In this document: piece by piece, positions 21,001 through 24,000 of the stretch
Numbering within the stretch: the stretch's first letter is position 1
Layout: the number at the start of each line of letters is the position of its first letter
Assembly (NCBI GenBank): GCA_030265395.1
Contig: JARFYF010000094.1
Span: 33,469,913 to 33,533,912, forward strand
DNA: 64,000 bases
Origin: Rhina ancylostomus
Taxonomy: Eukaryota
Direction of reading: 5' to 3'
Position numbers: made by a program

Positions 21001-24000
21001 TCCCAATAGTAGCTGCCAGGTCACTGCTGCAATGAACTATGGAACGCCAGTCAGATCCTTAAAAGATACTCTTTCCGTGGTGACCACAGAGCACTTATGG
21101 AAAAGGCTCCACGGAGGTGGGGGAAAACATCATGGAGGTTTGGGAAAGAAGAGAATACCTAACACGTATCAGTCTCACCACCACCTCTAGTACCCCATGA
21201 TCATGTACACTGATCTAATTCTCATGCTGCTCAAAGCTCCACATCATTGCAAGGTAAGAGCTGATCAATTTGACAGAGATCACAGTACTGATTTCTGCTG
21301 TGAATTCTTTTCAAAGACAGGAGTAAATAGTAGGAAGTATCAAAAATGCTCAGCAATAAAAACTGAAGTGAGTGATGCTGAGAGCAATCAGTCAATGGAC
21401 CAGAAGGGACCATTTAATTAGCATCTCTTTGCCAATCAGCTAGAGGTTCTCTCCTAGTTTTACTGTGAGTAAGAAGTGCAGGTTGTATGCTGTCCCCATA
21501 AAGTCCCATCAGAAATTGCAGAAGTAATCATTAAACAAAGCATGTTTGATGCCAAGAGAACTTCATTCGGACTAGCATGGGTCACAAACAGAAGTATCTN
21601 NNNNNNNNNNNNNNNNNNNNNNNNNNNNNNNNNNNNNNNNNNNNNNNNNNNNNNNNNNNNNNNNNNNNNNNNNNNNNNNNNNNNNNNNNNNNNNNNNNNC
21701 TGTTCACATGGTTCTCTCACCGTCTCCCAGAATTCAGAGTTTTCCAAGTCACGTGGTGCTTTTAACTAGGTCACCGTGCTGGTGTGAGGAGGGGAGGCCT
21801 CATGAACTCACTGCACTGATGGAGAGGGAGAGACCCAGAATCCAACAACACAACACTGGCCTGCGTTTCAGTGAAACACATCTCCTTTCTCCGCTGAAGA
21901 ATTACATGGACAAACATTTGAAGTCTTCTACATCTGTGGGTAATACACACAGAATCCTGCACAGACACACACACACACAAAATCCTGCACGCACAGCTAC
22001 AAGTGCATTCACACAAATGATTCTATACATTCACACCTCCACTCACGTACACAATCACAGTAACCCGCACAAACGCACACATATCCTTATAAATGGGCAC
22101 ACATGTGCACATACAGGGCACCTTCCCTAAGATTGTGCCCTCACCTGTCAGGATGACCATGCTGTCGGATGGGGCGATGGTGAGGTTGGTGAAGGTCTCC
22201 TGGTTCCTGACAGGGCTGTAGCGCACGATGAAGTTGCTGAGGTCGATGGAAGATGGTGGAGACCAGCTGATCCTCATGGAGTCCGCAAGCACGTGGGTGA
22301 ATCGCAGGTCAGTGGGGGGTGGCACCGCTAGGAGGGAACAGACACACGTCCTGGTCAGTGACAGCTCTCGGTGTTAATGAGCAGCACACACACGCTGATG
22401 CACACAGGCTGGAGCCGTTGGGTTTGCATGCACACACTTCTAAACACTGGGCCCATTTCACTACCTATTACAGCAGCATCAGGTGCCAATCTCAACAGGC
22501 AGGGAGTGTTGCAAATATCCCCCACAGAGCCACATCTTCACAGAAAGGAGCTGGAAACTGCACCCAATCTCCTGGCCGTTGTGCATTACCAAATCTAATC
22601 CTGCACTTGCCCCCACCACCCCCTCCACCACCTCAAATAGCAGGAGCGATGGGAGCCAGAGTGGGTCATCCATTTCACCCTTTTTCAAGTGTCAGAGGTC
22701 ACCCAATGGTCCAAAAATACCTCAAAGATGCCTCTTACTCAGTGAGGTGATTTCCAAGACAACAGCCCCTGGCATCAGGTGCGAATCAGCACAGGAAAAT
22801 CCCGGGTACAGCAATGAGCTGACCGTCAATGGTGATTGAGGAATGGATATCGGCCAGAATGCCCTGCTCCTCTCCAAAACTGAGCGTGCATCCTCTCATC
22901 ACAGAAGGCAGTGCCGCAAACAGTGTAGCACTCCCTTTGGAGCTTATCTGGGACTCACAATGTTTGAACAGCAGGCACTAACTGAGCCAAGGACGAAACC
23001 TGCGGCATCAGCTCAGGTGGGGCAACCCAGAGGGGTCACTCAGGTGGGGGAAGAGGAGCAGGTTCAATACTGCAAGCAGACTTTTTTTGTTGAAGTAAGT
23101 ATAATCAGTTAAAAACACTCAACATTAATGTACAAGACATGCAAAGATTGCTAATGTTTTTAAATGCCAAGAAGTTAATTAATTAATCTATCATTGTTCA
23201 TAGATCTATCATAGATGATCCTAACTAATTGCAGGTTTTACAAATGTTTCCTTCCACTAATGGGTGCATGGGAGCTTGTGAGGTAGCCCACTCTTGCTAT
23301 CACTAATGCAAGGCCTCCAGGTACACCCAATGCATGGTTTGGATGTGGACCAAAAATCCCCCAGAATTGGTGCATTTCTTCAAGGAAGATGCAAGTACAT
23401 CCTTGAATATTTTTCTCTGCCTGCCTAGCTTTCTCTTCCAATTACAGAGCTTGTAATACAGTGTCTATTTTAAGACCCTGGTGTGTTTTCAGTGCATGAA
23501 TGATGTGGCCGCCCCAGTGTAGCCATATTATAACCAGGGCTTCAATATGGTCTTGGCCTAGGAAAGCATACTGAAATTGGTTTCCTTGTCCTTTCAGTGA
23601 TTTTAGAGGATTTTGTGGAAACAGTGTCGATATTCCTTCCAGATCCTTTGCGATATCTACTAAAGGTAGCCCAGGTCTCAGAAGAACACAGGAGAACAGC
23701 CATCACCATTGTAAATCCTTAAGGGATTTCATACACAATGTAGAAATTTCTTTATTCAGAAAAAATCTGCAGCAGTGAGATTCTTCCAATTTAAATTATA
23801 TTTATTATTATTATAACCTTACATTGAGTGGCATAATCACACAGAAGACTCAGGAACTCAAATCATACAGATGTGAACTACAACCTTTCCCCAGTCAAAA
23901 TAGCCAATGGACAAAGGCGGTTAACATTAAAATGCTTCAGAAAGAATAATAAATCTACACCTTCTGTGAGACACAGAAGGCTGAGATGTGATGGTAAATT

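What the first reader, a model, noticed from the sequence alone, without database searches (positions are those of the whole stretch)
21700..23080. Orphan fibronectin gene fragment embedded in a FOXP1 intron
Seen: one intact FN III-8a exon with a polypyrimidine/AG acceptor and GTGAG donor, inside a roughly 1.4 kb block that is visibly more GC/CpG-rich than its flanks. No neighbouring FN exon (III-7b, EIIIB, III-8b) was recognised anywhere in the 64 kb. The block is gap-free through to the FOXP exon at 28149. Known: fibronectin is a compact multi-exon gene and is not nested in FOXP1 in well-studied vertebrates. Inference: intron flanks are retained, so this would be a DNA-level duplication or capture rather than a retrocopy. 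The alternative is a chimeric contig, because the block starts right after a 100-N gap and has SINE/RTE remnants near its right edge.
Basis: partly seen in the sequence, partly recalled or inferred. Interest (0 to 1): 0.85.

Follow-up and report, generated by a model that had tools for sequence, protein, structure and literature searches.

The report
Lone fibronectin exon, probably misassembled
A single, perfectly intact fibronectin exon really does sit 5.8 kb from a FOXP1 exon in this gap-ridden shark or ray draft sequence, but it is more likely an assembly mix-up than a true gene-fragment insertion.

Summary
A 183-nt minus-strand exon (22145-22327) has an AG acceptor and a GTGAGG donor. It encodes the first two thirds of fibronectin type III repeat 8. 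It matches 59 of 60 whole codons of an expressed fibronectin fragment, P0001. No other fibronectin exon lies in the 64 kb. The exon sits in the most GC-rich 1.4 kb of the window (52% against a 37% median). That block starts at a 100-N run and ends at a sharp composition break near 23063-23083. A FOXP1 exon (28149-28238, same strand) is joined to it without a gap. The retained intron flanks rule out a processed retrocopy.

Whether the placement is real could not be tested, because no eukaryotic genome or read data were available. I favour a chimeric contig end, a "false chimeric gain" (about 0.65). The copy is undecayed and compositionally foreign. It sits at a contig end in a draft with 11 N runs. 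If real, it would be a sense-strand exon with strong splice sites that puts a stop codon into FOXP1. A genuine recent DNA-level insertion remains possible (about 0.25). LINE 3' transduction is unlikely.

The parts
21600..21699 (.). 100-N run that forms the left limit of the block. It was not filled or looked up.
   Evidence: Unlike 2 of the other 3 100-N runs, its flanks share no repeat arms that would tie them together.
21700..22144 (-). Intron-like flank downstream of the exon (445 bp), beginning with the GTGAGG donor at 22144-22139.
   Evidence: GC 47.4%, CpG o/e 0.38. No fibronectin III-8b coding sequence.
22145..22327 (-). Fibronectin type III repeat 8, first exon (III-8a). 183 nt, phase 1/1, open frame.
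   Evidence: GC 59.6%, GC3 81.7%, CpG o/e 0.63.
22328..23080 (-). Intron-like flank upstream of the exon (753 bp). It holds the AG acceptor (22329-22328), a pyrimidine tract and a CTGAC branch-point-like site.
   Evidence: GC 52.9%, CpG o/e 0.27. No EIIIB or III-7b coding sequence.
23063..23083 (.). Sharp composition break: 52.2% GC to the left, 36.2% to the right. A T7 run (A7 on the minus strand) begins at its right end.
   Evidence: log-likelihood gain 60.3, and the ten best change-points lie at 23060-23083. Sequence.
23261..23617 (-). Remnant of a dispersed repeat, colinear in three pieces with a second copy at 34853-35380 (+). It lies just outside the block.
   Evidence: 69-74% identity. 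Not confirmed as LINE-derived.
28149..28238 (-). FOXP1 coding exon (90 nt, phase 0/0). It is the only FOXP1 exon in the window.

Best explanation
The exon is the genuine fibronectin (fn1) III-8a exon of this cartilaginous fish, with about 1.2 kb of its own introns. It has been attached by an assembly error to the end of a contig from a FOXP1 intron. This is a 'false chimeric gain', not a feature of the animal's genome. Shown: the exon's identity, its intactness, its isolation, the composition break, and its position at a contig end. Inferred: that the join near 23063-23083 is artificial.
For: 1. The copy is undecayed. 59 of 60 whole codons match an expressed fibronectin fragment. The frame is open and the splice signals are canonical. 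GC3 is 81.7% and CpG o/e 0.63, against GC3 43.3% in the FOXP1 exon and CpG o/e 0.17 in the window.
2. The block is compositionally foreign and its edge is abrupt.
3. It is the last 1.38 kb of a contig, next to a 100-N run. The draft has 11 N runs in 64 kb. Nothing ties the two sides of that run together.
4. Only one exon is present, as expected for a short stray piece of a compact multi-exon gene.
5. It lies in the sense orientation of FOXP1 with strong splice signals. Read in FOXP1's phase it gives a stop at codon 18. I recall FOXP1 to be dosage-sensitive, so such an exon should be selected against (inference). All 9 named cartilaginous-fish FOXP1 proteins that I fetched pass straight from this FOXP1 exon to the next one.
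6. Exons of one gene falsely placed inside another, beside assembly gaps, are a documented class of error in older vertebrate drafts (PMC9516828, passages read).
Against: - The right junction lies in uninterrupted sequence, so an error needs a chimeric read or a false path.
- I found no near-identical repeat at the junction that would explain one. The neighbouring repeat remnant is old (69-74% identity between its two copies in the window). Its recognisable homology stops about 180 bp short of the break.
- The one amino-acid difference from P0001 (I for V) could mark a diverged second copy. It could equally be a species or allelic difference.
- A real, recent duplicate would itself tend to break an assembly, so the adjoining N run is only weak evidence.
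- No read, depth or second-assembly evidence was available.
Confidence: 0.65

Rival explanations
1. A real, evolutionarily recent DNA-level copy of about 1.4 kb or more of the fn1 locus, inserted into the FOXP1 intron. Possible routes are templated repair, a small interspersed duplication, or capture by an unrecognised DNA element. It would be a non-functional gene fragment that might be spliced into some FOXP1 transcripts as a poison exon.
For: The block is continuous with FOXP1-intron sequence for 5.8 kb up to the FOXP1 exon, with no N. Intron flanks and splice sites are kept, so the copy was made from DNA, not from mRNA. There is one conservative residue difference from the expressed fragment P0001. 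No near-identical repeat at the junction would explain a misjoin.
Against: No sign of age: no decay of the frame, CpG or GC3 towards the local composition. One end is hidden by the N run, so no target-site duplication or element termini can be shown (one search found none for the neighbouring repeat). No transposon protein lies nearby. It is sense-oriented with strong splice sites and gives a stop in FOXP1's frame, so it should be deleterious (inference). Small recent interspersed single-exon duplicates are rare compared with contig errors in drafts of this quality (my estimate, not computed).
Confidence: 0.25
2. Retrotransposon-mediated 3' transduction, or retrocopy of unspliced pre-mRNA. A LINE sitting upstream of III-8a in the fn1 intron read through into the exon, and the whole transcript was reverse-transcribed into the FOXP1 intron.
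For: A dispersed-repeat remnant lies directly upstream of the block on the same strand (23617 to 23261). An A7 run on that strand sits at the composition break. The mechanism is well known for human LINEs and SVAs (PMC9311842, abstract seen in the listing).
Against: The remnant is old: its two copies in the window are 69-74% identical. The exon is 59/60 identical to an expressed transcript, so the two cannot have arrived together without selection on the exon. Homology to the sister copy stops at 23261, and the last 180 bp do not align convincingly. LINE identity was not confirmed: Pfam gave none, the Atlas gave no hit for this ORF, and the single weak representative hit had no Pfam domain. 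Any tail or target-site duplication at the far end is hidden by the N run.
Confidence: 0.05
3. A genuine, selected alternative exon of FOXP1 acquired by exon shuffling.
For: Same strand as FOXP1, with intact splice signals.
Against: The phases do not fit. The FOXP1 exon ends in phase 0 and the fibronectin exon is phase 1/1, giving a stop at codon 18. None of 9 named FOXP1 proteins carries such an insert. Half a fibronectin type III domain cannot fold alone (established knowledge).
Confidence: 0.02

Closest known systems
False chimeric gain (exons of one gene falsely inserted into another gene in a draft assembly; Ko et al. 2022, PMC9516828)
   Same: A foreign coding exon lies inside an unrelated gene, next to an assembly gap, in a heavily gapped draft.
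   Different: In that paper the errors were shown by read depth, linked reads and a better assembly. None of these could be examined here. Their cases arose mainly from haplotype or sequencing-error duplication, which need not apply here.
Unprocessed (duplicated) pseudogene fragment
   Same: A piece of a gene with exon, splice sites and intron flanks, away from the parent locus.
   Different: Such fragments usually lie in larger segmental duplications and show decay. This one is 1.4 kb, a single exon, and undecayed. The parent locus was not seen.
Exon shuffling by LINE 3' transduction
   Same: A repeat remnant lies directly upstream on the same strand, with an A-run at the boundary.
   Different: The repeat is old and the exon is pristine. 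LINE identity, tail and target-site duplication are not shown.
Fibronectin type III repeat 8 of vertebrate FN1
   Same: Near-identity to an expressed fibronectin fragment in which III-7 precedes and III-9 and the RGD-bearing III-10 follow. It aligns to repeat 8 of solved human fragments.
   Different: Only the first 61 residues of the repeat are present. All neighbouring exons are absent from the window.

Membership tests
Fibronectin (FN1) type III repeat 8, first exon | Fibronectin type III domain signature | tested here: met
   Pfam fn3 E=1.3e-7, 32.2 bits against a cut-off of 25. Profile positions 2-42 of 84, i.e. the first half of a domain.
Fibronectin (FN1) type III repeat 8, first exon | Best match is repeat 8 of fibronectin itself, not another FN3 protein | tested here: met
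   The top 6 solved-structure hits are fibronectin fragments (one deposited as 'hypothetical protein'), E of 1e-24 to 1e-25, at the repeat-8 position. Titin and others score E of 1e-8 or worse. 59/60 identity to P0001 residues 448-507, between III-7 and III-9.
Fibronectin (FN1) type III repeat 8, first exon | Exon limits coincide with the coding junctions and have phase 1 on both sides | tested here: met
   Identity to P0001 starts at the AG and ends at the GT. 183 nt = 2 + 60x3 + 1. That FN3 repeats are usually split into two phase-1 exons is recalled, not tested.
Fibronectin (FN1) locus | Neighbouring fibronectin exons within a few kb | tested here: not met
   None in 64 kb. Only 445 bp downstream and 753 bp upstream belong to the block, so the block may simply be shorter than the native introns.
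Processed retrocopy | Introns removed, adjoining exons fused | tested here: not met
   Similarity to P0001 stops at canonical splice sites and non-coding flanks follow.
LINE 3' transduction | LINE directly upstream in the same orientation, of the same age as the transduced piece | tested here: not met
   A repeat remnant is present, but it is 69-74% identical to its sister copy while the exon is 59/60 identical to a transcript. LINE identity unconfirmed.
LINE 3' transduction | Tail and target-site duplication at the far end | not testable with these tools
   The far end lies in or beyond the N run at 21600-21699, which was left untouched.
False chimeric gain (assembly artefact) | Foreign exon inside another gene, beside an assembly gap | tested here: met
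False chimeric gain (assembly artefact) | Read-depth or read-pair discordance at the junction, and absence from a better assembly | not testable with these tools
FOXP1 intron | Flanking exon is FOXP1 rather than FOXP2 or FOXP4 | tested here: met
   The 24 best named hits are all cartilaginous-fish FOXP1, and the best FOXP2 hit is weaker. Identity is 30/30 to the Callorhinchus and Pristis FOXP1 proteins, 29/30 to six others and 28/30 to one, of 9 fetched. This is the only FOXP1 exon in the window.

The most novel reading that the evidence does not exclude
The block is real: a very recent germline DNA-level transposition of one fn1 exon, with its intron flanks, into a coding-region intron of FOXP1 in a shark or ray. 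It lies in the sense orientation with strong splice sites, so it may already act as a poison exon that lowers FOXP1 output. That would be a caught-in-the-act first step of exon shuffling.
Probability: 0.25. Interest if true: 0.45.

Novelty: not a real feature. Interest (0 to 1): 0.2.

Why it matters
If it is an artefact, it matters only for quality control. Such a piece can produce a false 'fibronectin-like' or chimeric FOXP1 gene model, and it may leave the true fn1 locus of this assembly lacking the exon. If it is real, it would be a clean, young example of a single exon moved at the DNA level into another gene in the sense orientation. It would then be useful for studying how new exons are tolerated or silenced in FOXP1, which I recall to be dosage-sensitive. 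That is of moderate interest, because duplicated gene fragments are a known kind of sequence.

Tried and rejected
- **Parent locus.** The fn1 locus of this species stayed unchecked.
- **Genomic ORFs from the same locus.** I searched the protein collection with the 116-aa read-through ORF. It gave only 7 hits at 51-63% identity (P0002-P0008, unnamed). None was near-identical. I neither fetched nor used them.
- **Full-length fibronectins.** They exceed the 2000-residue limit of the 'longer' search, so only the fragment P0001 was found (1 of 8 candidates).
- **SINE in the block.** From memory, 22790-23005 resembles a tRNA-derived shark SINE. Tools did not support this: ARAGORN found 0 genes, Rfam gave 0 matches at gathering scores, and the 8 Rfam matches at E up to 5 were all far below gathering. 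There is no second copy in the window. I make no claim on it.
- **LINE identity of the repeat at 23261-23617.** Pfam gave nothing. The Atlas gave nothing for this ORF, and only C2H2 zinc-finger-like clusters for the sister copy's terminal ORF. The representative search gave 1 hit at E=4.9e-4, which has no Pfam domain. The LINE label rests on recalled motifs only.
- **Target-site duplication of that repeat.** The longest shared word was 8 nt.
- **UGCAUG splicing-enhancer repeats.** I recall these from the fibronectin EIIIB region. There is 1 copy in the 753-bp upstream flank, against 0.35 per kb in the whole window, so no enrichment.
- **Extension of the block left of the N run.** GC is only mildly raised (41%, change-point at 16745, weak), with 2-4 CpG per 200 bp at 20000-21199. 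Inconclusive.
- **Other foreign exons or transposon proteins.** Of the 150 longest of 211 N-free ORFs of 60 aa or more, only the fibronectin exon matched Pfam.
- **Literature.** 'fibronectin + FOXP1 + intron + shark' gave 1 irrelevant paper. 'fibronectin + FOXP1 + misassembly' gave 0. A search on fibronectin EIIIB and cartilaginous fish listed nothing relevant. Supplementary files were not consulted.

Full report
**What is in the sequence.** On the minus strand at 22145-22327 lies a 183-nt open exon. A pyrimidine tract and AG (...tgttccctcctAG) precede it, and GTGAGG follows it. A CTGAC branch-point-like site lies about 27 nt upstream of the AG. The exon starts with the last two bases of a codon and ends with the first base of one, so it is phase 1 on both sides. 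Its 60 whole codons match Pfam fn3 (E=1.3e-7, above the curated cut-off), covering only the first half of the domain model.

**Which exon it is.** A search of the protein collection among longer proteins (106-2000 aa) found one significant hit among 8 candidates. This was P0001, an unnamed 936-aa fragment (E=4e-45).
- P0001 is a run of fibronectin type III repeats that includes an RGD-bearing repeat.
- The window's exon equals its residues 448-507 at 59 of 60 positions. The one difference is a conservative I for V.
- Similarity stops exactly at the two splice sites.
- Among solved structures, the best matches are fibronectin fragments. The exon aligns to the third domain of the 7-B-8-9 fragment (3t1w_A, residues 187-246) and to the second domain of the 7-10 fragment (1fnf_A, residues 95-154). 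Both positions are repeat III-8.

That fibronectin type III repeats are usually split into two exons is my recollection, not a test.

**It stands alone.**
- tblastn with P0001, which covers the repeats on both sides, gave no match outside 22047-22328 with E below 4.
- A profile I built from nine of the ten pieces into which I cut P0001 hit 1 of 2089 ORFs of 20 aa or more. That hit scored E=2.4e-16 and the next best scored E=3.
- Of the 150 longest of the 211 N-free ORFs of 60 aa or more, only this one matched any Pfam family at E up to 0.001.

So no III-7b, EIIIB or III-8b exon, no other foreign exon of that size and no intact transposon protein is present.

**The setting.** The window has 11 N runs of 10 to 866 bases, four of them exactly 100. 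One 100-N run at 21600-21699 directly precedes the block. I did not fill it or look it up. From 21700 to 30135 there is no N.

At 28149-28238, on the same strand, lies a 90-nt phase-0 exon.
- The 24 best named hits of its translation are all FOXP1 of cartilaginous fishes, and the best FOXP2 hit is weaker.
- It is 30/30 identical to the Callorhinchus milii and Pristis pectinata proteins, 29/30 to six others and 28/30 to one, of nine fetched.
- It is the only FOXP1 exon in the window.

The window is thus from a cartilaginous fish, and I do not take it for human. In the direction of transcription the fibronectin exon lies 5.8 kb downstream of the FOXP1 exon, in the following intron.

Each exon was searched on its own.

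**The block is compositionally foreign.**
- 21700-23080 has 52.0% GC and CpG o/e 0.34. The window has 37.8% and 0.17.
- It is the most GC-rich of 468 N-free windows of the same length. The next, elsewhere in the window, has 44.5%, and the median is 36.9%.
- A two-segment model places the break at 23063-23083, with 52.2% against 36.2% and a log-likelihood gain of 60.
- The exon has GC3 of 81.7% and CpG o/e 0.63. The FOXP1 exon has GC3 of 43.3%.
- No part of the block recurs in the window.

**The right edge.** Just outside the block, on the same strand, lies a remnant of a dispersed repeat. Three colinear pieces (23617-23531, 23484-23397, 23324-23261) match a second copy at 34853-35380 at 69-74% identity. 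From remembered motifs I take it for the end of a LINE open reading frame, but no tool confirmed this. By extrapolation its 3' end would fall near the composition break, where the minus strand has an A7 run. However, the last 180 bp do not align convincingly with the sister copy, so I do not rely on this. No target-site duplication was found.

**Other gaps and the left flank.** Two of the other three 100-N runs (3046-3145 and 45156-45255) lie between inverted arms of a foldback repeat, so their flanks clearly belong together. The run at 21600 has no such tie. Left of it, GC and CpG are only mildly raised, so I cannot say whether the foreign piece continues there.

**What it most likely is.** The retained intron flanks and splice sites exclude a processed retrocopy. 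I could not test them directly. The indirect evidence favours an artefact, at about 0.65.
- The piece shows no sign of having resided in an AT-rich, CpG-poor intron.
- It forms the very end of a contig in a heavily gapped draft.
- It is a single exon of a compact gene.
- If real, it would be a sense-strand exon with strong splice signals. Read in FOXP1's phase it gives a stop at codon 18. I recall FOXP1 to be dosage-sensitive.
- All nine named FOXP1 proteins pass straight to the next FOXP1 exon.
- Exons of one gene falsely inserted into another beside assembly gaps are documented as 'false chimeric gains' in older vertebrate drafts (PMC9516828, passages read).

**What speaks against an artefact.**
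- The junction lies in continuous sequence.
- No near-identical repeat is there to explain a misjoin.
- The I-for-V difference might mark a second copy.
- A real young duplicate would also tend to break an assembly.

I give a real recent insertion about 0.25. I give LINE 3' transduction about 0.05, because the repeat is old and the exon is pristine. I give a selected FOXP1 exon about 0.02.

**Literature.** Two searches combined fibronectin with FOXP1. Adding intron and shark gave one irrelevant paper. Adding misassembly gave none. I saw nothing in print on such a fragment. Supplements were not consulted.

**Verdict.** The most probable status is an assembly artefact. Interest is low unless reads or a better assembly show that the junction is real.

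Noticed in passing
window 19515-19730, 20427-20537, 34968-35100, 37785-37996, 44950-45090, 45294-45398, 46930-47062: A family of short foldback (palindromic) repeats that share a CTGCAGATGCTGGAAA-like motif. The motif has 11 matches with up to 3 mismatches, against 0.97 expected. I recall such elements as abundant in sharks and rays.
   Followed up: partly
window 3046-3145 and 45156-45255: Two of the four 100-N runs lie exactly between inverted repeat arms: 2821-2953 against 3277-3146 (87%), and 44986-45090 against 45398-45294 (85%). The assembler apparently failed in the centre of hairpin-forming repeats. These joins look locally correct.
   Followed up: partly
window 34853-35520 (+): Second, better-kept copy of the repeat that neighbours the block. 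A foldback element interrupts it at about 34968-35100. It ends in a 57-aa ORF (35317-35487) that the Atlas places near C2H2 zinc-finger clusters (score 0.95).
   Followed up: partly
window 44529-44897 against 46546-47008: Two further repeat matches of about 130-280 bp at 68-74% identity, one direct and one inverted. Not characterised.
   Followed up: no
window 22301-22747 (+) and 22444-22836 (+): The longest (149 aa) and sixth-longest (131 aa) stop-free frames of the window lie inside the block, on the strand opposite to the exon. Neither has a Pfam match at E up to 0.001. They are most simply a by-product of the high GC content.
   Followed up: yes
window 20000-21199: CpG counts are mildly raised (2-4 per 200 bp) and GC patches reach 48-52% to the left of the 100-N run. 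I cannot tell whether this is more foreign sequence or ordinary repeats.
   Followed up: partly
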